From contig JACNJU010000144.1 in the NCBI GenBank assembly GCA_014382375.1, positions 23,030 to 47,029 on the forward strand: 24,000 bases of DNA. Direction: 5' to 3'. The notes below the pieces were generated by a model. It did not search any database. It was not told the origin of the DNA and saw only the letters and a program-made list of their open reading frames with translations. Positions 2,016 through 22,314 of this stretch are shown one piece after another. Made by a program: the position numbers and the translations under genes. This DNA comes from Rhodospirillaceae bacterium (GTDB taxonomy: Bacteria > Pseudomonadota > Alphaproteobacteria > Rhodospirillales > JABHCV01). Every line of letters begins with the position of its first letter. Position 1 is the stretch's first letter.

Positions 2016-2426
2016 ATGAGCAACGCCATCATTATTCACTCGCTGGAACATGCCCAGGCTGCCCTGCAGGCGGCCCAGGCGGTCGGTGTTCAGGTCACAC
2101 TGGTAAGCCCGGCCGGGGCGGCGGCAACCCTTGGTGCGACAGTCTTTCGGGATATCGTCGCCCAGGCCGCAGAAGCTTACCCGGACGTCGATTTTCAGGC
2201 CGTGCTTGATTGTGGAGATGATCCGGGGCTGGCCCTTGGCGCGCTCAGACACGGCATCAAGGTGGTGCGTATTTCCAACGGCCCTGAATTATCTGAAAAA
2301 CTGGCCGATATCGCTGGCCAGCGCGGAGCCACGGTCTACACCGAAACAGGTGATGAGCTTGATTTGTACGACATGACCAACCCCGCTGCCGCCTGTCGCG
2401 CCTGGCTCAAGGAACTGCCGCAATGA
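2016..2426 (+). CDS. Hypothetical protein (136 aa), translationally coupled to thiE
   Basis: The ORF has coding-like composition. Its stop overlaps the thiE start in ATGA (2423-2426). I recognise no family motif and see no obvious SD. Confidence 0.55.
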   Translation: MSNAIIIHSLEHAQAALQAAQAVGVQVTLVSPAGAAATLGATVFRDIVAQAAEAYPDVDFQAVLDCGDDPGLALGALRHGIKVVRISNGPELSEKLADIAGQRGATVYTETGDELDLYDMTNPAAACRAWLKELPQ

Positions 2427-3070
2427 CCGATTTCAACCGCACCCAGTTATACCTGATCACGCCGCCGAAGCTCGACCTGTCCAGCTTCCCCGACATTCTG
2501 GCCCGCACCCTTGACGCCGGACGTGTAGGCTGCCTGCAACTGCGCCTCAAAGACACACCAGAAGAAGACATCGTCCGCACCATCGATGCCTTAAAACCCA
2601 TCGCCCAGGAACGCGGTGTCGCATTCTTGCTCAATGATGACCCGACCCTTGCCGCCAGGACCGGCTGCGACGGGGTTCATGTGGGCCAGCAGGACGCCAG
2701 CTACGAAGAAGCCCGTGAGGCCGTCGGGACGGGTGCCATAGTTGGTGTCACCTGCCATGATTCCAGACATCTGGCCATGGAAGCAGCTGAACAGGGTGCC
2801 GATTATGTTGCCTTCGGTGCCTTTTTCCCGACCGCAACGAAAACCCCGAAAGCCCACCCGGATCCGGAAATCCTTAACTGGTGGAGCAAGGACATGACCG
2901 TGCCGGTCGTTGCCATCGGCGGCATCAGTGTTGAAAACTGCCCGCCCCTGATCAGCGCCGGAGCAGATTTTCTGGCCGTCGTCGCCGGGGTCTGGGATTA
3001 CGCGGAAGGCCCGGAACAAGCGGTCATCGCCTTCAACCGGCTGTTCAAAGAAACACCCGTCGATCCTTAA
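2423..3070 (+). CDS. thiE: Thiamine-phosphate synthase
   Basis: 215 aa with ThiE-like blocks: LYLITP, GVHVGQQD, GADYVAFGAFFPTATK, VVAIGGI. Confidence 0.9.
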   Translation: MTDFNRTQLYLITPPKLDLSSFPDILARTLDAGRVGCLQLRLKDTPEEDIVRTIDALKPIAQERGVAFLLNDDPTLAARTGCDGVHVGQQDASYEEAREAVGTGAIVGVTCHDSRHLAMEAAEQGADYVAFGAFFPTATKTPKAHPDPEILNWWSKDMTVPVVAIGGISVENCPPLISAGADFLAVVAGVWDYAEGPEQAVIAFNRLFKETPVDP

Positions 3071-3145: not shown

Positions 3146-3715
3146 ATGAAAATTAATGGAAATGCCGTTCGTCCCGGTATGGTGATTGAACATCAGGGAC
3201 GCCTGTGGCGGGCCGTAAAAATCCAGCACACCCAGCCCGGCAAGGGCGGCGCTTACCTGCAAGTGGAATTGCGCGGTGTCCGCGATGGCACCAAGCTCAA
3301 TGAACGATTCCGTTCCTCCGAAACCGTCGAACGGGCGCGCCTCGACCAGAAAGATTACCAATACCTGTTCGCCGATGGCGACATGTACACCTTCATGGAC
3401 AATGAAACTTACGAGCAGATCACCTTAAGTGGCGAACTGATCGGTGAGGAGCAGATCCCTTTCCTGCAGGAAAGCATGATCGTCACAGTCGAAAGTCATG
3501 AAGACGACCCCATCGGCGTCCAGCTGCCCGACCATGTCACCCTTGAAGTGACAGAGGCCGACGCCGTCGTTAAAGGCCAGACCGCCTCATCATCCTACAA
3601 GCCTGCGGTTCTTGAAAACGGCGTCAAAACCCTGGTCCCACCCCATATCGGGACAGGCACCCGCATCGTCGTCAACACCGCCGATGCCTCTTATGTCGAG
3701 CGAGCGAAAGATTAA
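3146..3715 (+). CDS. efp: Elongation factor P
   Basis: 189 aa. The N-terminus [18 protein letters not shown] and the loop [14 protein letters not shown] are typical of EF-P. Confidence 0.95.
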
Positions 3716-3721
3716 CAACTG

Positions 3722-4516
3722 ATGGCCCATCGTTCCGCTCTGATAAATGTGATGATCGCCGCAGCCCAGAAGGCGTCGCGCAAGCTTCTGCGAGATTTTG
3801 GTGAAGTTGAAAACCTGCAAGTGGCCCGCAAGGGGCCTGCAGATTTTGTCAGCTCGGCCGATAAAACCGCCGAAGATACCCTGCACTACGCCCTTAGAAA
3901 GGCGCGGCCCAACTATTCCTTCCTGATGGAAGAATCCGGCGAGATTGTCGGTTCCGACAGTTCCAACTGCTGGATCATCGACCCCCTGGACGGCACCACC
4001 AACTTCCTGCACGGATTGCCGCACTTCGCCATCTCGATCGGTTTGCAGCGCGATAACGAACCCTACGCCGGGGTCATTTACGAACCCGTCCATGATGAAA
4101 TGTTCTGGGCCGAAAAAGGCCAGGGCGCGCACCTCAATGACCGGCGCATCCGGGTTTCGGGACGCAATGCCATGGATGAAGCCCTGTTTGCCACAGGCAT
4201 TCCATTTATGGGTGCGCGTGATCATCCATTGTTCCTTAAACAACTTGAAGCGGTGATGGCAGTCTCCTGCGGGGTGCGTCGATTTGGATCGGCGGCGCTT
4301 GACCTGGCCTACGTTGCCGCCGGGCGCTATGAAGGGTTTTGGGAAACCGGCCTGAGCCCCTGGGACATGGCTGCGGGTATCGTCATTGTCCGCGAAGCCG
4401 GAGGATACGTTACCGAGATCGACGGCAATGGCAAGATGCTGGAAAGCGGTTCAATTCTGGCCGCCAACGACCAACTTCACGTCCCCTTGGGCAAATTGAT
4501 TAAAAACGCAAAGTAA
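3722..4516 (+). CDS. suhB: Inositol monophosphatase family protein (SuhB-like)
   Basis: 264 aa with IMPase motifs WIIDPLDGTTNF and WDMAAG. The N-terminus SALINVMIAAAQKASRKLLRDFGEVE is typical of alphaproteobacterial SuhB. It starts 6 nt after efp. Confidence 0.9.
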   Translation: MAHRSALINVMIAAAQKASRKLLRDFGEVENLQVARKGPADFVSSADKTAEDTLHYALRKARPNYSFLMEESGEIVGSDSSNCWIIDPLDGTTNFLHGLPHFAISIGLQRDNEPYAGVIYEPVHDEMFWAEKGQGAHLNDRRIRVSGRNAMDEALFATGIPFMGARDHPLFLKQLEAVMAVSCGVRRFGSAALDLAYVAAGRYEGFWETGLSPWDMAAGIVIVREAGGYVTEIDGNGKMLESGSILAANDQLHVPLGKLIKNAK

Positions 4517-4637
4517 AAAAGAACCCGCAAGGCATTGAGCTTACGCGGTAAAATGGTTGTGCCATGCGCCACGCTTGGTTATCTTGACAGAATCTAATTT
4601 GGGCAAAGCCATCAACGGGTGGAATATCAGACGCATC

Positions 4638-5567
4638 ATGGACTTATTTCAAAGCAATTCTCATTTTACCAACGCACGTCCCACCATCATGGGGGCGTTG
4701 GCGGCCATCTCACTGGTTCTGGCAAGTTCCGACAACGCCACCGCCCAACAAGATACCTATGTGGATTTCTCTCATCCGAATGTGACTATAGACCTGAGTG
4801 TTATCGACAATGGCGGCTACCAGCCAGCAACCGGTGCTGAGGCGACTGTCTTTGGTGGTCGATCGGGAATTAAACTGATTATGCCGGGCAGTCAGGCACC
4901 GACGTCCATGCTTCATGTTCCGACTGTCAGCGGCAAAACCCTGGTCTTGCCGAAAAAACAAAAACCCGTTCAAACCGCCGCCAAAAATCCAAAGCCAGCC
5001 CCGGTTGTTGAAAAAGCACCAGCACCTGCCCCTACGCCTGTCAAACTTGCCGCCACGGCGAAACCGACGATAACACCGGCAGCCGCCCCAGAGGTCAAAA
5101 AAGCCCCACCGGCAGCGCCTGTTGTCAATCCGGCTCCGAAAGTCGCCAAGGCCGAAGTGCCGAAAGCACCGCCCCCGCCGCCAGCCCCGAAGGCGGAAAA
5201 AACCGTTGCCACTGAGCAAGCGGCAATGCCTGCCGCATCGGCGGCAATAGGCCCCGGACAAGCCTTGCGTGTCACCTTTACAGGTGAGCAGACAAAACTT
5301 CCAGCAGCCGCAAAAGACGGTTTGACCGCTCTCGCCAATAAGATGAAGGGGCAGGAAACCGTACGCCTGCAATTGATGGCCTATGCTGGTGGCCCGTCGT
5401 TGTCATCGAGCCTGGCCCGCAGGATGTCTCTCTCCAGGGCTCTTGCCGTACGCTCTTTCCTGATTGAAAGCGGGGTCAGAAGCACCCGCATCGATGTTCG
5501 GGCGCTGGGCAACAAAACCACTGAAAAACCTATCAACCGTGTCGACCTGAACGTAACGGAACGATGA
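4638..5567 (+). CDS. OmpA-domain protein with a long Pro/Ala/Lys-rich linker
   Basis: The C-terminus VRLQLMAYAGG...RRMSLSRALAVRSFLIESGVRSTRIDVRALG is OmpA-like. The central region (~res 130-215 of the track ORF) is PAPVVEKAPAPAPTPVKL...KAPPPPPAPKAEK. The track ORF starts at a TTG at 4557. I prefer the in-frame ATG at 4638 (MDLFQSNSHFTNARPTIMGALAAISLVLASSDNATAQ, signal-peptide-like). The start remains uncertain; 4689 is also possible. Confidence 0.75.
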   Translation: MDLFQSNSHFTNARPTIMGALAAISLVLASSDNATAQQDTYVDFSHPNVTIDLSVIDNGGYQPATGAEATVFGGRSGIKLIMPGSQAPTSMLHVPTVSGKTLVLPKKQKPVQTAAKNPKPAPVVEKAPAPAPTPVKLAATAKPTITPAAAPEVKKAPPAAPVVNPAPKVAKAEVPKAPPPPPAPKAEKTVATEQAAMPAASAAIGPGQALRVTFTGEQTKLPAAAKDGLTALANKMKGQETVRLQLMAYAGGPSLSSSLARRMSLSRALAVRSFLIESGVRSTRIDVRALGNKTTEKPINRVDLNVTER

Positions 5568-5574
5568 ACGCCTT

Positions 5575-5591
5575 AAAATCGTCACGATTTT
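5575..5591. repeat. Perfect 8-1-8 palindrome AAAATCGT-C-ACGATTTT between the OmpA-domain gene and the MotA-like gene
   Basis: Read directly from the sequence. It begins 8 nt after the OmpA-domain stop and lies ~48 nt before the MotA-like ATG. It could be a weak AU-rich terminator hairpin or an operator. Confidence 0.3.
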
Positions 5592-5638
5592 TATCTCCAA
5601 ATATATCTGGTGCATAAGTTAAGGAGAGTTCTCCGGCC

Positions 5639-6787
5639 ATGACCAACCCGCGGCGTTTTCTTCTTCGAATGGTTTTGTTCCTGATAGCCGTGCTGGCTGT
5701 CGCATTCTTTCTGTTCGAGCCACTGCAAGGCGCGTTTATGGCCAACGCGCCCTTGAACGGATTGATCATCGGGGTCCTTGTGCTAGGCGTGATTTACAAT
5801 TTCCGACAGGTCATCATGCTCTATCCGGAAGTTTCGTGGATTGAAAACTTCCGTCAGAACGGCCAGGCCACTTCGCAAGGCAGCCAGCCGCGTCTGCTGG
5901 CCTCCATGGCGACAATGCTGGGAGAGCGTAACCGCGATCATTTAAGCCTGTCCGCGCTTTCCATGCGCTCCTTGCTGGATGGTATTTATTCCAGGCTTGA
6001 TGAATCCCGCGATCTGTCGCGCTATACAATCGGGCTGCTGATTTTCCTGGGCCTGCTGGGCACTTTCTGGGGATTGCTTGGCACCGTTGCTTCCATCGGC
6101 AACGTTATTGCCAATCTGAGCATCAATGCTGAAACCGCGGCCGTCTTTGCGGATTTGAAAGATGGCCTGCAAGCGCCCATGACCGGCATGGGAACGGCAT
6201 TTTCATCATCCCTATTCGGTTTGGCCGGATCACTGGTGCTGGGTTTTCTTGATCTTCAGGCCGGACAAGCCCTGAACCGCTTTTACAATGACCTTGAGGA
6301 ATGGCTGTCCAGCCTGACCCGCCTGTCCAGCGGCGCGCTCTCCGCCAGCGGCGAGGGCGACCAATCCGTTCCGGCTTATGTTCAGGCGCTTCTCGAGCAG
6401 ACGGCCGAAAGCCTTGAAAGCCTGCAGCGGACAATTGGCAAAGGTGAGGAAAGCCGGATTTCGGCGAACAACACCCTGATGGCTGTCGGCGAGAAAATGG
6501 GCACGCTGAGCGATCACATGCGCACGGAGCAGGCGCTGATGATGAAACTGGCCGAAAGCCAGCTTGAGATGAAACCGATCCTCGCCCGTTTGGCTGAAAA
6601 CAGCGGCTCATTGGGTGGCTCAAGCGGCGGTCTGGATGAGGCGACCCGCAGTCATATCCGCAACCTGGATGTCTATATGGCGCGTCTGGTCGAAGAACTG
6701 GGCAGCGGCCGGGAGGACATCATCTCGCAGATTCGCAGCGAAATCAAACTGCTCGCCCGCACCATCGCCGCGACCAAGGACGGGTAA
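5639..6787 (+). CDS. MotA/TolQ/ExbB-family proton-channel protein with a ~170-aa C-terminal coiled-coil tail
   Basis: 382 aa. I see four hydrophobic segments by eye (res ~8-27, 39-60, 129-150, 184-207). It carries the family-typical GLLGTFWGLLGTV and GMGTAFSSSLFGLAGSLVLGF. The heptad-rich tail reads QALLEQTAESLESLQRTIG...MMKLAESQLEMK. Confidence 0.8.
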   Translation: MTNPRRFLLRMVLFLIAVLAVAFFLFEPLQGAFMANAPLNGLIIGVLVLGVIYNFRQVIMLYPEVSWIENFRQNGQATSQGSQPRLLASMATMLGERNRDHLSLSALSMRSLLDGIYSRLDESRDLSRYTIGLLIFLGLLGTFWGLLGTVASIGNVIANLSINAETAAVFADLKDGLQAPMTGMGTAFSSSLFGLAGSLVLGFLDLQAGQALNRFYNDLEEWLSSLTRLSSGALSASGEGDQSVPAYVQALLEQTAESLESLQRTIGKGEESRISANNTLMAVGEKMGTLSDHMRTEQALMMKLAESQLEMKPILARLAENSGSLGGSSGGLDEATRSHIRNLDVYMARLVEELGSGREDIISQIRSEIKLLARTIAATKDG

Positions 6788-6800
6788 CGGGTAGCGTGAC

Positions 6801-7973
6801 ATGACCACCCTCGCCCGCCGCGCCCAGCGAAGCACCAACATCTGGCCCGGTTTTGTCGATGCCCTGGCAACTTTGCTGATGGTCATCATCTTTCTGCTGA
6901 TGGTCTTCGTGCTGGCCCAGTTTTTCCTGGGTGAAGCGTTATCAGGCCGTGACGCGGCCTTGCGCAAACTGCAAATCCAGATCACGGATATGAGTGATCT
7001 TCTGTCGCTGGAACGAAAGGCCAATGAAAACATGCGGCTGAATATCGCAACCATGACCGATGATCTGCAGGCATCGCTCATTAGCCGCGATAACCTTAAG
7101 TCATCCCTGTCGGCAATGACCCAGCACGCCGAAAGCCTGTCGGCAAAACTGACCGATTCCTTTGCCGTCATTGAGGCCGATAAGGAAACCATCGAAGCGA
7201 AGGTTCAGGAACTGGCCAAACTGACAAACGACATCGCCGCCCTGAAGGCCCTGCGCGAAGAAATGGAAACCAAAATTACAGACATGTCCACACAGTTAAA
7301 GGACAAGGACAATGATGTCGCAAAAGAGCGCAACATAGCCGAAAGTGCGCGCGCCCAGATCGCCCTGGCAAACCGTCAAATGGCGGCCCTGCGCGAACAA
7401 TTGGCGCGGCTTTCCGAAGCCCTTGAAGTTGCCGAACAAAAGGCCGAGGACCGGGGCGTACAGATTTCATCTCTTGGCAAGCGACTGAATTCAGCCTTGG
7501 CCACCAAGGTTCAGGAATTGTCGCGCTATCGCTCCGAATTCTTTGGCCGGTTGCGTGAAGTTCTTGGCAACCAGCCCGGAATCAGGATCGTCGGTGACCG
7601 TTTTGTTTTCCAGTCAGAGGTTCTGTTCGCTTCCGCATCAGCCGAGCTTGGTGAGGAAGGACAAAACCAGCTACGCCAGCTGGCGACAACGTTACTCGAT
7701 ATCATGACTCGCATCCCAAGCGACATCGACTGGATATTGCGTATCGATGGACATACGGACAACGTGCCTATCTCGAACTGGAAATTCCCCTCTAACTGGG
7801 AGCTATCTGCGGCCCGCGCCATATCGGTGGTCAAATTCCTGATCGCCGAGGGTATTTCTGCCGACCGCCTGGCCGCCGCCGGTTTTGGCGAATTTCGCCC
7901 CCTTGACATGGCTACAGACGAAGTCGCCAATCGTCGCAACCGCCGCATCGAAATGAAAATGACGCAACGCTAA
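6801..7973 (+). CDS. MotB-like protein: TM with conserved Asp, ~200-aa coiled coil, and an OmpA-like peptidoglycan-binding domain
   Basis: 390 aa. The N-terminus NIWPGFVDALATLLMVIIFLLMVF is a MotB-type TM with Asp. The long heptad region runs from LRKLQIQITDM to LATKVQELSRYRSEFF. The C-terminus reads RIDGHTDNVPISNWKFPSNWELSAARAISVVKFL...AGFGEFRPL...NRRNRRIEMKM. It starts 13 nt after the MotA-like gene. Confidence 0.85.
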   Translation: MTTLARRAQRSTNIWPGFVDALATLLMVIIFLLMVFVLAQFFLGEALSGRDAALRKLQIQITDMSDLLSLERKANENMRLNIATMTDDLQASLISRDNLKSSLSAMTQHAESLSAKLTDSFAVIEADKETIEAKVQELAKLTNDIAALKALREEMETKITDMSTQLKDKDNDVAKERNIAESARAQIALANRQMAALREQLARLSEALEVAEQKAEDRGVQISSLGKRLNSALATKVQELSRYRSEFFGRLREVLGNQPGIRIVGDRFVFQSEVLFASASAELGEEGQNQLRQLATTLLDIMTRIPSDIDWILRIDGHTDNVPISNWKFPSNWELSAARAISVVKFLIAEGISADRLAAAGFGEFRPLDMATDEVANRRNRRIEMKMTQR

Positions 7974-8048
7974 ATCTGATCATTGACAACCTCTCTTCTA
8001 TCCCTTCATTTAGCCCGCCGCTGAAGTTCTCAGGATTGCCTTATCCAA

Positions 8049-9233
8049 ATGCTCACATTGTTCCTTATTGTCTTTATCGATCTCGTCGGCTTCGGAATCA
8101 TCATTCCGTTGCTGCCGTTTTTTGGCGAGCATTTTAACGCCAGTCCGGCCATGATCGGCCTATTGATGGCATCCTATTCACTGGCCCAGTTTATTGCCGC
8201 CCCCTTTTGGGGCCGCACCAGTGATCGCATCGGTCGCCGCCCGGTCTTACTGATTACACTGGCCGGGACCTCGGCTTCCTATGTTCTGTTGGGATTTTCC
8301 AACTCCCTTTTGATGTTGTTTTTGGCGCGCGGACTGGGTGGCTTCATGGCTGGTAACATTTCAACCGCCTTCGCCTATGTCGCCGACATCACGACACCGG
8401 AAAACCGTACCAAGGGGATGGGCGTTATCGGCGCCGCCTTTGGTCTTGGCTTTATCGCAGGCCCTGCTATCGGCGGAATTCTTGCTGGTCCCGATCCATT
8501 AAATGCAGATTACCAGACACCCTCACTGGCCGCTGCGGGACTTTCCGCCATCGCCCTGACCATGGCCTTCTTTCTGCTTAAGGAATCCCTGTCTGACGAT
8601 ATCCGCAAAGAGATTGCCGAAATGCCTGCCAAAAACCGCCGCCAGCAATTTAAGAGCGCCCTTGGCAAACCCGGCGTCGGTCTGCTGATCGGCTTGTCCT
8701 TTCTGGCCACCTTTGTTTTTGCCGGCATGGAGACAACCTTCGCCATGTGGTCTGAACGGCGCATGGGTTGGGGACCGCAACAAAACGGTTACCTGTTCGC
8801 CTTCGTCGGCATTCTCTCCGCCCTTGTGCAGGGAGGCCTTGTCGGAAGACTGGCCCGGCGCTTCGGCGAGACCAATCTGGTGATCCAGGGCGCTACCGCT
8901 CTTGCCCTGGGCATGTTATTGATTCCGTTCACCAATTCCCTTGTCACGCTGCTTGGCGCCATGGTTATCGTGGCTTACGGTTTCAGCATCATCACGCCAT
9001 CACTGAACAGCCTTATTTCACTGCAAGTTGGCTCCGGCGAGCAAGGCGGGGTGATGGGGGTTGGCCGTTCCGCAACGACCATGGCGCGCGTCATAGGACC
9101 AGCCTGGGCCGGCTTATTGTTCTCGCTGCTGGGTATGGACTGGCCCTATTTCGGGGGTGCGGCGGTGATGTCAGTGGTCGTCCTGCTTGGCCTTCGAGGC
9201 TTGAAATCGATCCACGTTCCTAAGAAAGCTTAA
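8049..9233 (+). CDS. MFS transporter (12-TM, drug/H+ antiporter-like)
   Basis: 394 aa, hydrophobic throughout. It has MFS motif A GRTSDRIGRRPVLL and a TCR/Tet-like N-terminus FIDLVGFGIIIPLLPFF. Confidence 0.85.
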   Translation: MLTLFLIVFIDLVGFGIIIPLLPFFGEHFNASPAMIGLLMASYSLAQFIAAPFWGRTSDRIGRRPVLLITLAGTSASYVLLGFSNSLLMLFLARGLGGFMAGNISTAFAYVADITTPENRTKGMGVIGAAFGLGFIAGPAIGGILAGPDPLNADYQTPSLAAAGLSAIALTMAFFLLKESLSDDIRKEIAEMPAKNRRQQFKSALGKPGVGLLIGLSFLATFVFAGMETTFAMWSERRMGWGPQQNGYLFAFVGILSALVQGGLVGRLARRFGETNLVIQGATALALGMLLIPFTNSLVTLLGAMVIVAYGFSIITPSLNSLISLQVGSGEQGGVMGVGRSATTMARVIGPAWAGLLFSLLGMDWPYFGGAAVMSVVVLLGLRGLKSIHVPKKA

Positions 9234-10097: not shown

Positions 10098-10637
10098 ATG
10101 GCTCATCAGACGCATTACGAAGTTCACGTTAAGCAGAACGGTCGCTGGGAAATCCACGGGCGCCATTCGCAGGCGGAAAAAGAACAGGCCATCGAGGAAG
10201 CCAAGTCCCTGGACGGGCAAAAGCACATCCAGGCTGTCAAGGTGATCCAGGAAATTTACGATCCTGAAGAGGGATCGTCCAAGGAGTATAACGTCTATGC
10301 TCCTGGCCAGAAAAAATACCAGCCGCCCCGCAAAAAAACCAAGAAAGACATCGCCAGGGAAGAAGAAGAAGCAGCGAGCACGGCGGCCAGAAGTATCAGG
10401 AAACCCCAAAAAAGCGGTCGTTCCCTTGTCAGCATTCTGATGAGTATCGCCCTGATTTCAGCCTTCTCGACCATCGTTGGCGCGCTGTTTACATGGTTTA
10501 CCGGAATGTTCCTGGCCGATTCAGGCGTCAGTGGCAACGCCCAGACAAATATCCTTTTTATCGTCTTCCTGTCGGTCTTCGTAATCGCCGCCATTCCCAT
10601 GGCCATCGTCTTCCTTGGCAAAAACGACGACGATTAG
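10098..10637 (+). CDS. Membrane protein (179 aa): unassigned N-terminal module plus a 2-TM hairpin; short paralog of the cyclase N-terminus
   Basis: SD GGGAG lies 6 nt upstream. The N-terminal ~67 aa and the 2-TM region align by eye with residues 1-210 of the next ORF (EVHV.QNGRWEI.GRH, AK.LD, VKVI.E.YD.E.G, QTNI.F). A basic linker (KKYQPPRKKTKKD) precedes TM1. Confidence 0.65.
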   Translation: MAHQTHYEVHVKQNGRWEIHGRHSQAEKEQAIEEAKSLDGQKHIQAVKVIQEIYDPEEGSSKEYNVYAPGQKKYQPPRKKTKKDIAREEEEAASTAARSIRKPQKSGRSLVSILMSIALISAFSTIVGALFTWFTGMFLADSGVSGNAQTNILFIVFLSVFVIAAIPMAIVFLGKNDDD

Positions 10638-10745: not shown

Positions 10746-12605
10746 ATGGCTAAGCAGATTATTTTTGAGGTGCATGTCTTTCAGAACGGCCGATGGGAAA
10801 TCCAGGGCCGCCATGAATCTTCTGAGATGAAGGCAGCCATTGCCGATGCCAAGGGGCTGGACCAACTCCCAAACATCGACATGGTCAAGGTCATCCTTGA
10901 AGAATATGACGATGAAACAGGCCACACCACAGAAAACATTGTCTACCGCTCGGCTGGCATGGCAGACAGCGAAGGTGGCCCAATCTCCATGGCTTCCAAG
11001 GTCAGAGCCGAAAAAAAATCCAACTCCTCATTTGGCGGGTCATCGGCATCTTCAGCGGGCTCGTCATTTTTTGATGACGACGATGATGATGATTTTGATG
11101 ATGACTTTTCGTCAGCCCGGGCAAGGAAATCGGCACGGGCAAGGCGTCCTGGCGGGCCCAGAAAAACCACCTTCGTCGGTGTCCTCGTTAAAATTCTCCT
11201 GATTATCCTGTTCTCTGTAACCATCGCGGCCTTAATGGCGGGTGGCGCGATCATGTTCCTGCGCGATACCTCCCTTAGCAGCAACGTGCAGACAAATATC
11301 GTGTTTGTCATGTTTATTGTTATTTTCCTGCTCAGCGCCGTTGTCATGTCCATGAATTTCATGCGCAAGGATGAAATCAGCACCCCCAACATACATGCAC
11401 CAAGTAGACGACAACGCCCCAAAAAGGCGCCCAAAAAAGCCCCAAGGCCTGAAAAAACGAAAAGCGAAAAAGAAGAGAGGCCAACCAAAAAGAAAATTGA
11501 AAAAGATGAAGATCTTGATCCAAGCGAAGAAGGCCTCGCTTCCAAGGCCGGGGAAGAATTGAAAGAGCAACTCAGTAAAGAAAAATCCAAGGAAGAAGAA
11601 AAAGAAGAGAAAAATGCGACCCCCGACCCTGAAGAAGAGCAGGAGGATGAGACACCCGAACCGGAACCCGAAGTACCCGCAAGCCTGTCTGCCCACGCCG
11701 AGAAGCAGCGCGTCTACCTGATGACGTTTTTAAGCGAGGGTCTGGAGAGATGTGAAGCCGACACAAAGAAACTCGACAGTTTCAACAAGTTCGGCCTCAA
11801 CCTGTATTTGGCCGGGGCCAGTGAGATTATGGGACAGGCGCGCAACCTGGATCATTATTCCCTGACCAAGATTCTCGCTGAAACCGTCTCATTGATGGGC
11901 TTTAAAGATGCGGACGCCGCCAAGTTCGCGGAAAAGTACGAAGACTACCTGCTCGCCGATGCCAGGTACATGCAGATGTTCCAGGCCGGCCGCAACGCCA
12001 TGAATTCCTACATGGAGAAAAACCCCGAGGCCATGAAATATCTGGGCCAGGCCCTGACCGACTGGAACAAGCCAACACAAAAGGAGGAAAGCACAGGCCC
12101 GGTCACTGTGCTGTTCACCGATATCGCCGGTTCCACGGCAATGACCCAGAACCTGGGCGACGCCGTTGCCCAACAAATCGTGCGCGCCCACAACCGTATT
12201 GTCCGCGAAGCGCTCACGCAATTTGCCGGCAAGGAAATCAAACACACCGGCGATGGCATCATGGCGTCGTTTTCGACCACCTCAAACGGAGTCGAAGGCT
12301 CTATCAAAATCCAGATTGATACGGCCAAACACAACGAAAACAACCCGGACCTTCCCCTGCACATCAAGATCGGTCTCAACGCCGGGGAACCCATATCCGA
12401 AGACAATGACCTGTTCGGTTCGACCGTGCAGATGGCGGCGCGCATTGTCGACAAGGCAAAGGCCGACGAGATTTTTGTTTCTGAAATCGTTCGCGGTATC
12501 TGTGCCGGCAAGGAAACCACCTTCAAAAACCGAGGTCCCTTCGCCATGAAGGGCTTCGATGAAGACCCAATCCTCTATGAAGTTGTGTGGAAAAAAGAAG
12601 AATAG
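10746..12605 (+). CDS. Membrane-anchored class III adenylate/guanylate cyclase carrying the same N-terminal module, a 2-TM hairpin, a K/E-rich linker and a helical domain
   Basis: 619 aa. The C-terminal domain (nt ~12096-12590) has VLFTDIAGSTAMT, EIKHTGDGIMASF, KIGLNAGEP and LFGSTVQMAARI, a class III cyclase pattern. It also contains a poly-Asp run FFDDDDDDDFDDDF and a K/E-rich segment at nt ~11400-11650. Confidence 0.85.
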   Translation: MAKQIIFEVHVFQNGRWEIQGRHESSEMKAAIADAKGLDQLPNIDMVKVILEEYDDETGHTTENIVYRSAGMADSEGGPISMASKVRAEKKSNSSFGGSSASSAGSSFFDDDDDDDFDDDFSSARARKSARARRPGGPRKTTFVGVLVKILLIILFSVTIAALMAGGAIMFLRDTSLSSNVQTNIVFVMFIVIFLLSAVVMSMNFMRKDEISTPNIHAPSRRQRPKKAPKKAPRPEKTKSEKEERPTKKKIEKDEDLDPSEEGLASKAGEELKEQLSKEKSKEEEKEEKNATPDPEEEQEDETPEPEPEVPASLSAHAEKQRVYLMTFLSEGLERCEADTKKLDSFNKFGLNLYLAGASEIMGQARNLDHYSLTKILAETVSLMGFKDADAAKFAEKYEDYLLADARYMQMFQAGRNAMNSYMEKNPEAMKYLGQALTDWNKPTQKEESTGPVTVLFTDIAGSTAMTQNLGDAVAQQIVRAHNRIVREALTQFAGKEIKHTGDGIMASFSTTSNGVEGSIKIQIDTAKHNENNPDLPLHIKIGLNAGEPISEDNDLFGSTVQMAARIVDKAKADEIFVSEIVRGICAGKETTFKNRGPFAMKGFDEDPILYEVVWKKEE

Positions 12606-16425: not shown

Positions 16426-17154
16426 ATGACGCATCCGCTGATGCCAAAAGCCACTGCCGTGTGGCTGGTTGAAAACACCGCTCTTTCATTTGAGCAGATT
16501 GCCGATTTTTGTGGCCTGCATTCCCTTGAGGTTCAGGCCATCGCCGACGACGAAGTCGCCATCGGTATGCAGGGCCTTGACCCGATCACCGCAGGCGAGC
16601 TGACGATGGAAGAAATCGAGCGCTGCCAGGCCGATCCGGGAACCCGCCTTAACCCCGCCGAAAACCGGACCCCGGTGGCCAAGAAAAAAGGTGCCCGCTA
16701 TACCCCGGTGTCAAAACGCCAGGACCGCCCCGACGCCATCGCCTGGTTGATCAAGAATTACCCGGAAATGAGCGACGCTCAGATTTCAAAATTGATCGGC
16801 ACGACCAAGCCGACAATCAATTCGATCCGCGAGCGCAGCCACTGGAATATCGCCAACATCAAGGCGCAAAACCCGGTCGCCCTCGGCCTGTGTTCGGCTG
16901 AAAATCTGGAAAAATCCGTGGCCATCTCCAGGGCCCGCGCCGGGACAACCCACGCCCCGAACAGGGGACCAAAGGAAGATGGCCCGGCCCCGTCCATTCC
17001 GACCACACCTGCGCCCAAACCCGAGCCCGTACCAACTGCGGAAACCGTATTCGTCGAACAGCTACCGGCCCCGCAAGAAGAGACTCTGGCGATCGAGCAA
17101 AACACGGACAGTGATCCCATCGCCATGCCAGCCCCGGAAGAAGTGAAAGAGTAA
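16426..17154 (+). CDS. DUF1013 family protein (TrcR-like cell-cycle regulator family)
   Basis: 242 aa. The N-terminus MPKATAVWLVENTALSFEQIADFCGLH and the block RQDRPDAIAWLIKNYPEMSDAQISKLIGTTKPTINSIRERSHWN are typical of DUF1013. It has a Pro/Ala-rich acidic tail. Confidence 0.8.
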   Translation: MTHPLMPKATAVWLVENTALSFEQIADFCGLHSLEVQAIADDEVAIGMQGLDPITAGELTMEEIERCQADPGTRLNPAENRTPVAKKKGARYTPVSKRQDRPDAIAWLIKNYPEMSDAQISKLIGTTKPTINSIRERSHWNIANIKAQNPVALGLCSAENLEKSVAISRARAGTTHAPNRGPKEDGPAPSIPTTPAPKPEPVPTAETVFVEQLPAPQEETLAIEQNTDSDPIAMPAPEEVKE

Positions 17155-20162: not shown

Positions 20163-21011
20163 CTAGAAATTCAGGGCACCGAGATCGAGTTTTCCACCCA
20201 GCACCGGCGGACACCAGAAATAGCTGCCGGAAATCGGTTTGCTAAACCGGAACAAGCCGTCAATGATCCGATCTTCCTGGCCGGTCATCCGGGCAAGTTG
20301 CGCCTCAAAGGCGGCAAAGGAGCTGCCGAAAGCGACAAACATCAATCCCTCTCCTGTGGCATCGGACCAGGGCATCGAACGACGAACAAGAAAAGCCTCT
20401 GGATCAAAGGTTTCCTGCGCCGTTCGTTTGACGTGGGCCGAAAGGGGTGCGTCATCAAGTTCTTCATTATCACTCAATCGGCGACCGATAATGTTGTCAC
20501 AATCGTCCTGGGACAGGGTCTCGAAATAATCCAGATCATGGACCCATTGCTGGACCGCAACAAAACTGGAGCCATCGTTGATCGCCGCGTCCACGGCCGC
20601 CTCACCGACAGGATTTTCGGTGCCATCCTCATAACCACTGAGGTCGCGGCCGCTGTCATATTTAAACCCGTTTATCAGGCGAACGCGGTGAAAGGCGGAG
20701 GCAAGATGCCGGTTGAGGGAACGGCTCTGACGAACAATAGGGTCGCACTCGCTGCCCCTGATCCAACACCATAGATCAGCTTGCGTCGAAGGAACGTCAC
20801 AGCCCTGCCCACTGACAGGAGGGAAAGGCCGAAGCGCTTCAAGCGAACCAGCCAGCGAAGGACCTATTCCGACAACGATATCAGCGTCAATCTCTACCCC
20901 GGCAAGCACATCAAGTGCAGCCGCAGGCTCGACATCGGCAAGCAGGTCGAATTCCAGATAACGAGAGAAATTCGGAACGGGTTCAAGAATTCCCGTCTGT
21001 GGTATGTTCAT
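20163..21011 (-). CDS. Dyp-type peroxidase
   Basis: 282 aa starting from the ATG at 21011 (MNIPQTGILEP...), with SD GGAGG ~8 nt upstream. It has the Dyp GXXDG motif (SGYEDGTENP) and the C-terminus MFVAFGSS...FSKPISGSYFWCPP. The 518-aa track ORF extends spuriously into rhlE out of frame. Confidence 0.85.
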   Translation of the reverse strand: MNIPQTGILEPVPNFSRYLEFDLLADVEPAAALDVLAGVEIDADIVVGIGPSLAGSLEALRPFPPVSGQGCDVPSTQADLWCWIRGSECDPIVRQSRSLNRHLASAFHRVRLINGFKYDSGRDLSGYEDGTENPVGEAAVDAAINDGSSFVAVQQWVHDLDYFETLSQDDCDNIIGRRLSDNEELDDAPLSAHVKRTAQETFDPEAFLVRRSMPWSDATGEGLMFVAFGSSFAAFEAQLARMTGQEDRIIDGLFRFSKPISGSYFWCPPVLGGKLDLGALNF

Positions 21012-21063
21012 TGCAAAGCCTCCACCCTGTCCTGCAACGAATATCATAGTTTCGCAATGCAGG

Positions 21064-22314
21064 CTATGCAGCCCTTTTTGTCGAGTTTCCTGAACGACCG
21101 CGGTGACGGCGTCGCGGGCCAGAACTGTTCCTGCGCTGTTGGGGACGCTTGGCCGGCCTGGTGTCGTTGGCGATCTCGGCAGCGTGGAATGAATGATCCT
21201 CGAAAACCGGTACGCTCTGGCGAATGATTTTTTCGATATCACGCAGGTAGCCGCGTTCCTCGACATCACAAAACGAAATTGCAATACCCGACGCCCCGGC
21301 ACGCGCTGTGCGGCCAATGCGATGGACGTAACTTTCAGGCTCGTTGGGAAGGTCGAAGTTGATAACATGGGTGACGCCGTCAACATCAATACCACGGGCC
21401 GCGATGTCGGTAGCCACCAGGGCCCGGATTTTACCCGAACGGAAGCTGTTAAGCGCCCGCTGGCGGGCGTTCTGGGTCTTGTTGCCGTGAATGGCGTCGG
21501 ATTGAATACCGTTTTGATGCAGGTGCCTTGAGACACGGTCGGCACCGTGTTTGGTGCGGGTGAAAATAAGCACCCGGGAAATATCCCTGTCGTCCAGCAA
21601 TTCGCCAAGCAAGGCGCGTTTATTGTCTTTTCGAACAAACAGTACCCGTTGCTCGATTTTCTCGACAGTGGTCGCCGCCGGGGCAACCTCAACCCTAATC
21701 GGGTCACGAAGCAGGCCATCGGCCAGCCCCTGAATCGTTCCCGGCATGGTCGCCGAGAACATCACTGTCTGACGTTTGTTCGGCAGGGCGGCGGTGATTT
21801 TCTTAACATCGGGGATAAAGCCCATGTCGAGCATACGATCAGCCTCATCAAGGATAAAGATTTCCACATCATCAAGATAAAGGTGTCGCTGGTTCATCAG
21901 ATCGATTAGCCGACCCGGTGTCGCGACCAGGATATGGACGCCCTGGGCCAGAGTCTTGATTTGCGGACGAATGGAAGCACCGCCGTAAACCACGGTCGAG
22001 CGCAAATGCATATGACGTCCGTAAGCCCGGATGCTGTCATTGATCTGACCGGCAAGTTCGCGGGTCGGGGCCAATATCAAGGCACGCGGTTTGCGGCTTT
22101 GCGGACGGGTGCCATTTGATGCCAGACGATTTAGCAGCGGCAACGCGAAGGATGCCGTCTTGCCGGTACCGGTCTGGGCGACGCCCAACAGGTCGTGCCC
22201 TTCAAGCAGTGCCGGAATCGACTTTTGCTGGATCGGCGTCGGGGTGGAATAGCCTTCATCGGCAATAGCGCGAAGGATGGGTTGGGCTAAATCAAAGCCC
22301 GTAAAATCAGTCAT
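21064..22314 (-). CDS. rhlE: DEAD-box ATP-dependent RNA helicase (RhlE-like)
   Basis: 416 aa with motifs AQTGTGKT, PTRELA, DEAD, SAT and HRIGRTARAG, plus a basic C-terminal tail RRNSSGPRRRHRGRSG. Confidence 0.9.
   Translation of the reverse strand: MTDFTGFDLAQPILRAIADEGYSTPTPIQQKSIPALLEGHDLLGVAQTGTGKTASFALPLLNRLASNGTRPQSRKPRALILAPTRELAGQINDSIRAYGRHMHLRSTVVYGGASIRPQIKTLAQGVHILVATPGRLIDLMNQRHLYLDDVEIFILDEADRMLDMGFIPDVKKITAALPNKRQTVMFSATMPGTIQGLADGLLRDPIRVEVAPAATTVEKIEQRVLFVRKDNKRALLGELLDDRDISRVLIFTRTKHGADRVSRHLHQNGIQSDAIHGNKTQNARQRALNSFRSGKIRALVATDIAARGIDVDGVTHVINFDLPNEPESYVHRIGRTARAGASGIAISFCDVEERGYLRDIEKIIRQSVPVFEDHSFHAAEIANDTRPAKRPQQRRNSSGPRRRHRGRSGNSTKRAA

What the first reader, a model, noticed from the sequence alone, without database searches (positions are those of the whole stretch)
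4638..7973. Orphan MotA/MotB-like stator pair with long coiled coils, preceded by a Pro/Ala-rich OmpA-domain protein
A three-gene same-strand block sits between suhB and an MFS gene, with no flagellar, Tol-Pal, TonB or Zorya (ZorC/ZorD-like) genes in the window. Gene 1 is a secreted OmpA-domain protein with an ~85-aa PAPK-type linker. Gene 2 is a 4-TM MotA/TolQ/ExbB-family channel with an extra ~170-aa heptad-rich cytoplasmic tail. Gene 3 is a MotB-like protein with the conserved TM Asp (GFVDAL) but ~200 aa of predicted coiled coil between the TM and the OmpA-like peptidoglycan-binding domain, much longer than the canonical MotB linker. Known ion-driven 5:2 motors (MotAB, ExbBD, TolQR, ZorAB, AglRQS) each couple to a dedicated partner; here the partner is not evident. 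This could be an uncharacterised envelope-spanning, proton-powered machine, with two peptidoglycan anchors encoded side by side.
Basis: partly seen in the sequence, partly recalled or inferred. Interest (0 to 1): 0.65.

Follow-up and report, generated by a model that had tools for sequence, protein, structure and literature searches.

The report
Conserved non-flagellar MotAB-like envelope motor
Three adjacent genes encode what looks like an ion-driven membrane motor anchored to the cell wall by an unusually long rigid stalk; it is a conserved housekeeping module of Alphaproteobacteria, is neither a flagellar motor nor a phage-defence system, and its job is still unknown.

Summary
Gene 1 (4638-5567) is a secreted protein with a Pro/Ala-rich spacer and an OmpA-like end. 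Gene 2 (5639-6787) is a 4-TM MotA/ExbB-fold protein with a 176-aa helical cytoplasmic tail. Gene 3 (6801-7973) is MotB-like, with an invariant TM Asp20, about 200 aa of continuous coiled coil and a canonical OmpA-like domain.

It is not a peculiarity of this genome. The block thiE-efp-suhB-g1-g2-g3 is syntenic across alphaproteobacterial species loci, with the trio together in 79 of 80. Gene 2 is as conserved as suhB. Gene 3 passes a curated but function-less NCBIfam equivalog (PRK09039).

It is not a flagellar stator. It lacks the torque-generating domain, S. meliloti carries an ortholog alongside its real motABC, and flagellum-less Komagataeibacter carries the family. It is not Zorya either, because there are no effector genes and no island context, although ZorAB is the nearest profile match.

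Partial prior art exists. K. hansenii "motA/motB", linked here to this family, alter cell length, colony spreading and cellulose texture, and their partner is unknown.

New findings: the coil varies in whole heptads (127 of 137 indels), gene 1 carries a conserved N-terminal motif, and gene 1's OmpA-like domain lacks the canonical peptidoglycan-binding Asp.

Verdict: a real, uncharacterised variant of the 5:2 motor kind.

The parts
4638..5567 (+). Gene 1: secreted accessory protein (309 aa) made of a signal peptide, a conserved N-terminal motif, a Pro/Ala/Lys-rich spacer and a variant OmpA-like domain
   Evidence: ORF. Product P0391 is identical. Pfam OmpA 33.2 bits. Present upstream of gene 2 in 79 of 80 loci, in Acetobacter L086 and in L088.
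4638..4745 (+). Predicted Sec signal peptide of gene 1 (about aa 1-36, ending ...ATA|QQ). There is no lipobox.
   Evidence: Read from the sequence. Homologs all end the hydrophobic stretch with ...A-Q. Cleavage is inferred, not tested.
4782..4805 (+). Conserved motif V-T-I-D-L-S-V-I (aa 49-56), about 12 residues after the predicted cleavage site; a candidate docking strand
   Evidence: The pattern [VIL]x[VI][DN][LWM]x[VAT][ILVF] is present in 62 of 72 homologs at the same relative position.
4935..5228 (+). Pro/Ala/Lys-rich spacer of gene 1 (about aa 100-197)
   Evidence: 25 % Pro and 82 % P/A/K/E/V in the window protein; 21-30 % Pro in the homologs examined.
5274..5537 (+). Variant OmpA-like domain of gene 1 (aa 213-300): AYAGG replaces GHTD, and only the Arg of LS-x-x-RA is kept
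   Evidence: Pfam match at 213-300. Family consensus RLQLxAYAGG..LS.SKARRLSLSRALSVRSFLIE.GVRSTRIDVRALGNKT. Alignment to the gene 3 domain.
5639..6256 (+). Gene 2 membrane core (aa 1-206): 4 TM, ExbB/TolQ/ZorA-like fold, invariant T142 in G-L-L-G-T-F-W-G (TM3) and F188/S189/S191 in TM4
   Evidence: AF2 model. Foldseek: ExbB 5sv0/5sv1 E about 1e-3, TolQ, ZorA 8vvn_D 3.6e-3, MotA 8ucs 4e-2. Invariant columns. TM3 and TM4 are the most conserved segments, at 0.84 and 0.88.
6257..6787 (+). Gene 2 cytoplasmic tail (aa 207-382): TM4 extension to 232, Gly/Ser hinge, helix 246-324, Gly/Ser hinge, helix 334-381, with a conserved end ...E-I-K/R-L-L-A-R-T-I-A
   Evidence: AF2 secondary structure. Conservation and periodicity. 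Profile match to the ZorA 8vvn_C tail region over 131-376. The same C-terminal motif is present in Acetobacter but absent in S. meliloti.
6801..7973 (+). Gene 3: MotB-like B subunit (390 aa), member of NCBIfam NF006543 (PRK09039.1-2)
   Evidence: 465 bits against a cut-off of 305. It starts 13 nt after the gene 2 stop. Present in 79 of 80 loci.
6843..6926 (+). Gene 3 TM helix (about aa 15-42) with invariant Asp20 (codon 6858-6860), the presumed ion-binding residue
   Evidence: W15 P16 G17 F18 V19 D20 are invariant in 29 homologs. Arg6, Arg7 and Arg10 before the TM give an N-in topology (read from the sequence).
6927..7565 (+). Gene 3 periplasmic coiled-coil stalk (aa 43-255)
   Evidence: Single heptad register from about 43 to 238. 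AF2 continuous helix 21-218 plus helix 224-255.
7116..7325 (+). Variable-length middle of the stalk (aa about 106-175), where homologs gain or lose whole heptads
   Evidence: 127 of 137 internal indels are multiples of 7 (7, 14, 21, 49, 63, 105 aa), and those heptad-multiple indels all fall at positions 107-175. Lengths are 390 mod 7 in 114 of 120 homologs and in 40 of 54 species loci.
7581..7973 (+). Gene 3 canonical OmpA/MotB-type peptidoglycan-binding domain (aa 261-390) with G-H-T-D, N-W-E-L-S, R339 and N-R-R-I-E all invariant
   Evidence: Pfam OmpA 57.9 bits. Invariant columns. Foldseek: H. pylori MotB-C 3s03 E 4e-10, PomB, MotS.

Best explanation
Genes 2 and 3 encode a proton- (or ion-) driven inner-membrane motor of the 5:2 MotAB/ExbBD/ZorAB kind. 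It is a housekeeping component of the alphaproteobacterial envelope, not a flagellar stator and not an anti-phage system.

Proposed working. Two gene 3 TM helices, each carrying Asp20, sit inside a ring of five gene 2 subunits, with Thr142 and Ser189/Ser191 lining the ion path. The gene 3 helices continue without a break into a parallel coiled-coil stalk of about 175-200 residues, up to about 26 nm if straight. The stalk ends in a canonical peptidoglycan-binding domain that fixes this axle to the cell wall. Ion flow then turns the gene 2 ring around the fixed axle. The ring's 176-residue cytoplasmic helical tail is the likely output or signalling arm, as in ZorA but much shorter. The middle of the stalk is a spacer whose length evolves in whole heptads, so the register and the phase between the TM helices and the wall-binding domain are preserved.

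Gene 1 is a co-inherited periplasmic accessory. It may dock through its conserved N-terminal strand, and it spans distance with a Pro-rich spacer.

The most likely physiological role is in envelope organisation or cell-length-related processes.

What is shown: the domain anatomy, the fold, the invariant residues, the conservation, the synteny, the heptad quantisation, and the exclusion of flagellar and Zorya membership. What is inferred: the 5:2 stoichiometry, rotation, which part is the output, gene 1 docking, and the physiological role.
For: Fold and residues. The gene 2 AF2 model (pLDDT 83.8) matches ExbB, TolQ, ZorA and, more weakly, MotA. 39 of 49 family members hit Pfam MotA_ExbB. T142 and the TM4 Ser residues are invariant or nearly so. 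They parallel ZorA Thr147/Ser184 and ZorB Asp26, which are required for Zorya function (PMC11946911). Gene 3 Asp20 and all canonical OmpA-type residues are invariant.

Coupling. The genes are adjacent (13 nt apart here, 2 nt or overlapping elsewhere) and together in 79 of 80 loci. The trio moves as a unit into a different neighbourhood in Acetobacter.

Housekeeping status. Median identity of gene 2 is 68 %, against suhB 66 %, thiE 62 % and efp 75 %. The family has about 590 clusters at 50 % identity with E below 1e-30. It is absent from 72,556 plasmids apart from mislabelled chromosomes. GC content is unremarkable.

Not flagellar. The cytoplasmic loop 57-128 holds one short helix, whereas flagellar stators have a 4-5-helix torque-generating interface (PMC12505986). 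No NCBIfam MotA, PomA, TolQ or ExbB model hit at E up to 0.1. S. meliloti has an ortholog pair in addition to its flagellar motA/motB/motC (PMC9541039). Flagellum-less K. hansenii has the family.

Stalk. The register is continuous, AF2 gives a single helix, and indels are heptad-quantised.

Phenotypes in K. hansenii. Overexpression gives longer cells, threefold colony spreading and looser cellulose. Disruption mutants are viable and make denser cellulose (PMC6570709; PMC7347698).
Against: No multimer model or experiment supports the 5:2 stoichiometry or rotation for this family.

The window's gene 2 scores below the Pfam gathering threshold, and Foldseek E-values are modest (about 1e-3, TM-score about 0.5 on the target).

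A straight stalk of about 26 nm is, by my own recollection of published periplasm widths, as long as or longer than the whole periplasm. The geometry is therefore unresolved: it could be tilted, folded or lying flat.

The tail's C-terminal motif is missing in S. meliloti, which weakens a universal 'tail-tip partner' idea.

Some divergent lineages have gene 2 with no gene 3 within 6 kb.

The K. hansenii data come mostly from overexpression. The polar MotB-GFP signal comes from a C-terminal, hence periplasmic, GFP fusion. By my reading of established knowledge on Sec-exported GFP, such a fusion should not fluoresce if correctly exported, so the polar foci may be aggregates.

The link from K. hansenii to this family is transitive, through WP_086640501, and not a direct alignment.
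Confidence: 0.6

Rival explanations
1. A Tol-Pal/Ton-like force transducer whose output is periplasmic. The motor pulls or turns the long gene 3 stalk, and with it gene 1, to act on the peptidoglycan or outer membrane, for example in outer-membrane tethering, constriction or setting envelope spacing. On this reading the cytoplasmic tail is regulatory.
For: Gene 2's membrane core is closest in fold to ExbB and TolQ. The stalk is long enough to cross the periplasm. Gene 1 has a TonB-like Pro-rich spacer and a conserved N-terminal strand close to its mature N-terminus. By my recollection, that resembles the TonB box and the TolB N-terminus that dock by strand addition. The trio is co-inherited. 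Cell-length phenotypes in K. hansenii resemble the effects of tolQ/tolR overexpression that the authors themselves cite.
Against: Gene 3 ends in a canonical wall-binding domain, which in MotB and ZorB makes the B subunit the fixed part. Gene 1 is missing in S. meliloti and in L089. Gene 1 spacer length does not covary with stalk length (rho -0.18, p 0.2). No outer-membrane partner has been identified.
Confidence: 0.2
2. A mainly structural inner-membrane-to-wall tether or ruler. The coiled coil sets or senses the distance from inner membrane to peptidoglycan, and the MotA-like ring serves as a membrane anchor or gated channel without sustained rotation.
For: Indels in the middle of the stalk are heptad-quantised and its ends are fixed. 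Long variants arose by tandem duplication of coil modules. The wall-binding domain is canonical.
Against: The strongest conservation lies in the ion-path helices TM3 and TM4 and in Asp20. That is hard to explain for a passive anchor.
Confidence: 0.1
3. A degenerate or minimal Zorya-like anti-phage sensor (ZorAB without adjacent effectors).
For: The best profile matches are ZorA1 (47 bits) and ZorB3 (94 bits) in PADLOC. The only PDB motor hit by sequence profile is ZorA 8vvn_C. The A subunit has a cytoplasmic helical tail.
Against: There is no ZorC, ZorD, ZorE, ZorF or ZorG in the window or in 80 loci. The matches cover only about 180 of 683 ZorA profile positions, and NCBIfam ZorA_4 gives 21 bits against a cut-off of 500. 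The tail is 176 aa, against the roughly 70 nm ZorA tail. Synteny with efp-suhB is stable and conservation is at housekeeping level. The family is absent from plasmids.
Confidence: 0.05
4. An accessory or alternative flagellar stator.
For: Public annotation calls many members 'flagellar motor protein MotA' or 'chemotaxis protein MotB'. The topology is 4 TM. The gene 3 C-terminal domain is most similar to MotB, PomB and MotS.
Against: There is no torque-generating interface (PMC12505986). No flagellar genes are nearby. The family is present in flagellum-less Komagataeibacter. It is additional to motABC in S. meliloti.
Confidence: 0.05

Closest known systems
ZorAB core of the Zorya anti-phage system (PDB 8vvn, 8qyd)
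   Same: The A subunit has a MotA/ExbB-type core and a C-terminal cytoplasmic helical tail. The B subunit has a TM Asp and an OmpA-like wall-binding domain. The Thr/Ser ion-path residues are equivalent. These are the best sequence-profile matches.
   Different: There are no ZorC-G effectors and no island context. The tail is about 176 aa against several hundred (about 70 nm). The model is all-helical, with no beta-hairpin. Gene 3 has a roughly 200-aa periplasmic coiled coil; the ZorAB paper read here describes no such stalk in ZorB. The module is vertically inherited and housekeeping.
Komagataeibacter hansenii 'MotA/MotB' (Jacek et al., PMC6570709; review PMC7347698)
   Same: Probably the same family. 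K. hansenii MotA is 63 % identical to WP_086640501 (paper's Table 1). That accession is P0534, which is 45 % identical to window gene 2 with E 5e-82 and is flanked by gene 1-like and gene 3-like genes. The genes are adjacent, with 4 TM plus an OmpA-like architecture, in an organism without flagella.
   Different: The K. hansenii proteins are shorter (348 and 321 aa). They were studied for cellulose engineering, and mechanism, stalk, tail and gene 1 were not analysed. No direct alignment to K. hansenii was possible here.
Flagellar stator MotAB/PomAB
   Same: 4-TM A subunit, B subunit with TM Asp, and an OmpA-like C-terminal domain whose fold is closest to MotB-C.
   Different: There is no torque-generating cytoplasmic domain. 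There is an extra tail. The TM-to-wall-domain linker is about four times longer. There is no flagellar context, and the family coexists with true motAB or occurs without flagella.
ExbBD / TolQR
   Same: Closest fold for the membrane core. The G-L-L-G-T-x-W-G motif resembles the ExbB/TolQ TM2 motif as I recall it. The role is non-flagellar.
   Different: The A subunit has 4 TM instead of 3. The B subunit carries an OmpA-like domain. No TonB or TolA gene is adjacent.
GldLM/PorLM gliding and type IX secretion motor
   Same: By analogy only: the A subunit has a cytoplasmic helical extension and the B subunit has a long periplasm-spanning extension.
   Different: No detectable homology beyond the superfamily. 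By my recollection, GldM has no wall-binding domain and is itself the rotating part.
Neisseria RmpM (comparison for gene 1 only)
   Same: The same layout as I recall it: a short N-terminal interaction segment, a Pro-rich hinge and a C-terminal OmpA-like domain in a periplasmic protein.
   Different: No specific sequence relationship was shown. Gene 1's OmpA-like domain lacks the canonical Asp.

Membership tests
Flagellar stator MotAB/PomAB | A subunit with a large TM2-TM3 cytoplasmic domain forming the torque-generating interface (4-5 short helices) | tested here: not met
   AF2 shows loop 57-128 with one short helix at 88-96. Foldseek ranks MotA (4e-2) and PomA (0.2) below ExbB, TolQ and ZorA. 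No NCBIfam MotA or PomA hit. The feature definition comes from PMC12505986.
Flagellar stator MotAB/PomAB | B subunit with a conserved TM Asp and a C-terminal OmpA-like peptidoglycan-binding domain | tested here: met
   Asp20 invariant; GHTD, NWELS, R339 and NRRIE invariant; Foldseek to MotB-C E 4e-10.
Flagellar stator MotAB/PomAB | Short plug and linker between the TM and the wall-binding domain | tested here: not met
   About 215 residues of continuous helix lie between the TM and the OmpA-like domain.
Flagellar stator MotAB/PomAB | Flagellar gene context, or requirement for swimming | tested here: not met
   No flagellar genes in the window. An ortholog coexists with motABC in S. meliloti. 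The family is present in flagellum-less Komagataeibacter. A swimming phenotype in the source organism cannot be tested here.
Zorya ZorAB | Adjacent effector genes (ZorC/D, ZorE or ZorF/G) | tested here: not met
   None found in the window. The gene following gene 3 is an MFS-transporter homolog in 58 of the 80 loci.
Zorya ZorAB | Full-length match to ZorA/ZorB models, with a very long ZorA tail | tested here: not met
   PADLOC ZorA1 gives 47 bits over profile positions 107-286 of 683. NCBIfam ZorA_4 gives 21 bits against a cut-off of 500. The tail is 176 aa, against the roughly 70 nm ZorA tail.
Zorya ZorAB | Variable, island-like or mobile genomic context | tested here: not met
   Stable efp-suhB synteny. 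Housekeeping-level conservation. Plasmid hits come only from mislabelled chromosomes.
ExbBD / TolQR | 3-TM A subunit, B subunit with a small periplasmic domain and no OmpA fold, and a TonB or TolA partner | tested here: not met
   4 TM predicted. Gene 3 has an OmpA domain. There is no TonB or TolA in the window.
5:2 ion-driven motor superfamily (MotA_ExbB, PF01618) | MotA/ExbB-type membrane core | tested here: met
   The window protein scores 18 bits, below the 22.9 cut-off. However, 39 of 49 family members hit the model, best E 1.1e-8, and the fold matches ExbB, TolQ, ZorA and MotA with probability about 1.0.
5:2 ion-driven motor superfamily (MotA_ExbB, PF01618) | A5B2 stoichiometry and ion-driven rotation | not testable with these tools
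   Only monomer structure prediction was available. This needs AF-Multimer, cryo-EM or biophysics.
NCBIfam PRK09039 'peptidoglycan-binding protein' (NF006543) | Whole-protein score above the curated equivalog cut-off | tested here: met
   465.3 bits against 305. The S. meliloti ortholog fits the sister model NF006544 at 692 bits against 362. The family name carries no tested function.
OmpA-like peptidoglycan-binding domain (gene 1) | Pfam OmpA match plus the canonical binding residues (Asp of TD, Arg of LS-x-x-RA) | tested here: inconclusive
   Pfam gives 33.2 bits against 27.2. But GHTD is replaced by AYAGG and Asn by Arg, with only the Arg retained, across 72 homologs. Binding was not tested.

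The most novel reading that the evidence does not exclude
This is a distinct, vertically inherited class of 5:2 rotary motor, a housekeeping relative of ZorAB. Its B subunit carries a heptad-quantised periplasmic coiled-coil 'ruler' and works with a dedicated periplasmic partner (gene 1). Together they measure or set inner-membrane-to-wall spacing, or drive an envelope or pole-associated process, and they report to the cytoplasm through the rotating tail. It could also be the kind of cellular machine from which the Zorya sensor was recruited.
Probability: 0.25. Interest if true: 0.8.

Novelty: new variant of a known kind. Interest (0 to 1): 0.6.

Why it matters
Every 5:2 ion-driven motor understood so far (MotAB, ExbBD, TolQR, GldLM, ZorAB) turned out to power a major envelope function. 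This family is conserved at housekeeping level, and its members were found in Rhodospirillales- and Acetobacteraceae-type genomes, in Sinorhizobium and Shinella, and in further unclassified alphaproteobacterial lineages. It is routinely mis-annotated as 'flagellar motor protein MotA' or 'chemotaxis protein MotB', and it has no assigned function or partner.

Establishing its role would add a new output to this class of motors and correct a widespread annotation error. It would also give a cellular reference point for how ZorAB senses envelope perturbation.

The stalk varies naturally in heptad steps, and that provides a ready experimental handle: add or remove heptads and measure envelope geometry and phenotype. 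The family also has an applied side, because manipulating it changes the texture and yield of bacterial cellulose in Komagataeibacter.

Tried and rejected
1. S. meliloti Rgs polar-growth proteins as the identity of the pair. Rejected: RgsA-H and RgsS are other proteins, and none is described there as MotA-, MotB- or OmpA-like.

2. Covariation of stalk length with gene 1 spacer length as evidence that they span the same gap. No correlation: rho -0.18, p 0.2, 54 loci.

3. Single-sequence PDB search with gene 2 found no motor, only spurious hits. A family profile was needed.

4. Promoter and terminator scan of 4300-8300 was uninformative. By eye, there is no CtrA-type TTAA-N7-TTAA box in the two upstream regions. 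The window has no tRNA or Rfam elements.

5. Literature searches for PRK09039, for surveys of 5:2 motors, for ZorAB homologs in Alphaproteobacteria, for MotA-like/MotB-like proteins and for 'proton channel family protein' found no paper on this family other than the Komagataeibacter work. The alpha-proteobacterial signature-protein paper does not mention it. The mBio 2025 stator phylogeny does not single it out.

6. Cluster look-ups of the most divergent representatives gave no organism names.

8. A gene 1 relative near the S. meliloti pair or near the solo gene 2 loci: none found with a gene 1 profile.

Full report
**1. The observation**

The + strand carries thiE (2423-3070), efp (3146-3715) and a suhB-like inositol monophosphatase (3722-4516). 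Three ORFs follow at 4638-5567, 5639-6787 and 6801-7973, then an MFS transporter (8049-9233), with cyaY on the opposite strand. The rest of the window encodes ordinary metabolic and regulatory proteins. No flagellar, Tol-Pal, TonB or Zorya components were found, and there are no tRNAs or Rfam elements. GC content across the trio (0.54-0.58) matches the window.

- **Gene 1** has a signal-peptide-like N-terminus and a spacer that is 25 % proline. Its OmpA match is above Pfam's cut-off.
- **Gene 2** has four TM helices and a 176-residue helical tail.
- **Gene 3** has the motif W-P-G-F-V-D20 in its single TM helix. Its heptad register is nearly unbroken from about residue 43 to 238. AlphaFold renders this as one helix from 21 to 218 plus a second from 224 to 255. 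A canonical OmpA/MotB-type domain follows.

**2. How widespread and how conserved**

Gene 2 has more than 8000 relatives in the large protein collection. The exhaustive representative search found about 590 clusters at 50 % identity with E below 1e-30, and almost all match end to end, tail included.

A scan of one genome per species returned 580 confirmed relatives. In the best 80 loci, all alphaproteobacterial by their record titles apart from one MAG labelled Gammaproteobacteria (L028), gene 3 follows gene 2 in 79 and a gene 1 relative precedes it in 79. The flanking thiE-efp-suhB and MFS genes are mostly retained.

Median identity to the window across these loci is efp 75 %, gene 2 68 %, suhB 66 %, thiE 62 %, gene 3 57 % and gene 1 about 40 %. 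So the motor core is under housekeeping-level constraint, while gene 1 evolves fast.

Among 72,556 plasmids, the only matches are Sinorhizobium and Shinella chromosomes deposited under plasmid labels. In S. meliloti the pair sits after thiE, a Sel1-repeat gene and the suhB-like gene, without gene 1. Its gene 3 is 45 % identical over its full length and fits the sister NCBIfam model NF006544.

More distant members behave as follows:
- L088 keeps efp-suhB-g1-g2-g3 with overlapping stop and start codons.
- L089 has g2-g3 in another context without gene 1.
- Acetobacter has g1-g2-g3 between an NAD kinase gene and a TraB/GumN gene.

The three genes therefore move as a unit. Gene 2 plus gene 3 is the core, and gene 1 is a frequent but dispensable accessory.

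**3. What the proteins are**

*Gene 3.* It passes the curated cut-off of NCBIfam NF006543 (PRK09039.1-2, 'peptidoglycan-binding protein') with 465 bits against 305. That family is recognised but carries no functional name.

*Gene 2.* It matches no curated NCBIfam model. Its best profile hits are partial matches to ZorA models: PADLOC ZorA1 at 47 bits, covering 180 of 683 positions, and NCBIfam ZorA_4 at 21 bits against a cut-off of 500. A profile of 49 diverse members finds only one real motor in the PDB, the Shewanella type I ZorA 8vvn_C, with E 2.5e-3 across TM3-TM4 and the tail. The AlphaFold model (pLDDT 83.8) superposes best on ExbB, TolQ and ZorA, and less well on MotA and PomA.

*Conserved residues.* Invariant or nearly invariant residues cluster in TM3 (G-L-L-G-T142-F-W-G-L) and TM4 (G-T-A-F188-S-S-S-L-F-G-L). 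Together with gene 3 Asp20 they mirror the ZorA Thr147/Ser184 and ZorB Asp26 ion path, whose mutation abolishes Zorya function (PMC11946911).

**4. What it is not**

*Not a flagellar stator.*
- The TM2-TM3 cytoplasmic loop holds a single short helix, not the 4-5-helix torque-generating interface that defines flagellar stators (PMC12505986).
- The linker from the TM helix to the wall-binding domain is about four times the usual length.
- No flagellar genes are nearby.
- S. meliloti has the pair in addition to its flagellar motA/motB/motC (PMC9541039).
- The family is present in Komagataeibacter, which has no flagella (PMC6570709).

*Not Zorya.*
- There are no effector genes.
- The context is stable core-genome synteny.
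- The tail is far shorter than ZorA's roughly 70 nm.
- The model matches are only partial.

*Not ExbBD or TolQR.*
- The A subunit has four TM helices.
- The B subunit has an OmpA-type domain.
- No TonB or TolA gene is adjacent.

**5. Prior experimental work**

Jacek and co-workers studied the adjacent 'motA' (348 aa, 4 TM) and 'motB' (321 aa, OmpA-like) genes of K. hansenii. They describe these as the only motility-gene homologs in a flagellum-less organism.

Their Table 1 lists Acetobacter tropicalis WP_086640501 as 63 % identical over 98 % of K. hansenii MotA. P0534 is 45 % identical to the window's gene 2 (E 5e-82), shares the C-terminal L-A-R-T-I-A motif, and is flanked by a gene 1 relative and a gene 3 relative. 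The K. hansenii genes are therefore very probably members of this family, although I could not align them directly.

Reported effects:
- Overexpression lengthens cells, triples colony spreading on soft agar, and loosens and increases cellulose.
- Disruption mutants are viable and make denser cellulose (PMC7347698).
- C-terminal GFP fusions of both proteins were polar.

The authors state that the energy-receiving partner remains to be found. One caution of my own: the C-terminus of the MotB-like protein is periplasmic, and GFP exported by Sec normally does not fluoresce. The polar foci may therefore be aggregates.

**6. New observations**

*(a) The stalk length is quantised in heptads.*
- 114 of 120 homologs have lengths equal to 390 plus a multiple of 7.
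- 40 of 54 species-level loci do, against about 8 expected by chance.
- 127 of 137 internal indels relative to the window protein are 7, 14, 21, 49, 63 or 105 residues, and those heptad-multiple indels all lie between residues 107 and 175.
- The juxtamembrane third and the wall-proximal third of the stalk are fixed in length and highly conserved: A46, G49 and R50 are invariant, and about 40 of the 45 positions between 232 and 276 are invariant.
- The longest variants (534-657 aa) arose by tandem duplication of coil modules.

*(b) Gene 1 homologs share a short motif.* The motif V-x-V-D-L-S-V-[IL] lies about 10-15 residues after the predicted cleavage site in 62 of 72 homologs. A second conserved patch, L-L-x-P-P...S-R-L-x-V, follows before the Pro-rich spacer.

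*(c) Gene 1's OmpA-like domain is strongly conserved within its family but is non-canonical.* AYAGG stands in for GHTD and Arg for the Asn of N-x-x-LS. Peptidoglycan binding by gene 1 should therefore not be assumed.

**7. Mechanism**

The best-supported reading is a peptidoglycan-anchored, ion-driven 5:2 motor. A gene 3 dimer forms a fixed axle whose TM helices continue directly into a rigid coiled-coil stalk. A gene 2 pentamer turns around it, and its cytoplasmic helical tail is the likely output or signalling arm.

The anatomy, the conserved ion-path residues and the exclusion of known families are shown. Stoichiometry, rotation, the direction of output and the role of gene 1 are inferred.

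The main rival keeps the same motor but puts the output in the periplasm, in a Tol/Ton-like arrangement that uses the stalk and gene 1. A passive-ruler reading is weakened by the extreme conservation of the ion path. One unresolved point is that a straight 26-nm stalk rivals the width of the periplasm, so the stalk may be tilted or folded, or may lie along the wall.

**8. Verdict**

The feature is real and ordinary in distribution, but it is functionally unexplained and widely mis-annotated. It is best filed as a new variant within the 5:2 motor kind. It is recognised as a sequence family and has been touched experimentally in one applied study, but it has no mechanism, no partner and no physiological role assigned.

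Noticed in passing
window 7116-7325 (gene 3 aa 106-175) and homologs P0121-P0240: Coiled-coil length varies almost only in whole heptads: 127 of 137 indels are multiples of 7, and there are at least 12 length classes equal to 390 mod 7. The two ends of the stalk are fixed.
   Followed up: yes
P0157 (657 aa), P0185 (534 aa), P0187 (555 aa); alignment A3 columns 127-470: Very long gene 3 variants contain two or three tandem copies of a roughly 120-aa coil module. In P0157 and P0185 the repeated copy even includes the juxtamembrane sequence FLGEALSGRDAAL, so they arose by internal duplication.
   Followed up: partly
L082 1111-2259; L084 and L085 1741-2880: Divergent gene 2 homologs (36-39 % identity, GC about 47 %) stand alone next to hrcA or efp-suhB, with no gene 3 relative within about 6 kb. 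The B subunit is either encoded elsewhere or absent. L085 also carries a 481-aa ORF with no Pfam hit.
   Followed up: partly
L081 (CP090106.1, 3.72 Mb, labelled 'plasmid pSymB'): This PLSDB record, and the Shinella and Sinorhizobium records of 3.5-4.6 Mb, carry core chromosomal genes (purE, rpmE, rpmJ, thiE). They look like chromosomes deposited or catalogued as plasmids.
   Followed up: no
L028 (PBRP01000003.1): This MAG is titled 'Gammaproteobacteria bacterium' but has the full alphaproteobacterial efp-suhB-g1-g2-g3-MFS synteny at 69 % gene 2 identity. It is probably misclassified.
   Followed up: no
window 10098-10637 and 10746-12605: A 179-aa ORF with no family match and a 619-aa protein with a C-terminal adenylate/guanylate cyclase domain lie downstream. 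They are co-retained with the trio in 30 and 37 of the 80 loci respectively. This may simply be conserved synteny.
   Followed up: no
window 16426-17154: A TrcR-family transcriptional cell-cycle regulator (Pfam PF06242, E 2e-61) is encoded here. No link to the trio was found.
   Followed up: no
window 20163-21719 and 21064-22314 (both on the - strand): Two long ORFs overlap by about 650 bp in different frames. The Dyp-peroxidase domain lies only in the last 150 residues of the first ORF, so its listed N-terminal extension is probably not coding and the DEAD-box helicase ORF is the real gene in the overlap.
   Followed up: no
(public annotations): Public records name many members of this family 'flagellar motor protein MotA' or 'chemotaxis protein MotB'. 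This is probably a systematic mis-annotation, given the absence of flagellar features.
   Followed up: partly
L081 6932-8038 (S. meliloti gene 2): The S. meliloti ortholog has a 23-aa N-terminal extension, lacks the conserved C-terminal ...RLLARTIA tail tip, and has no gene 1 nearby. The tail tip and gene 1 may have been lost together in that lineage.
   Followed up: no
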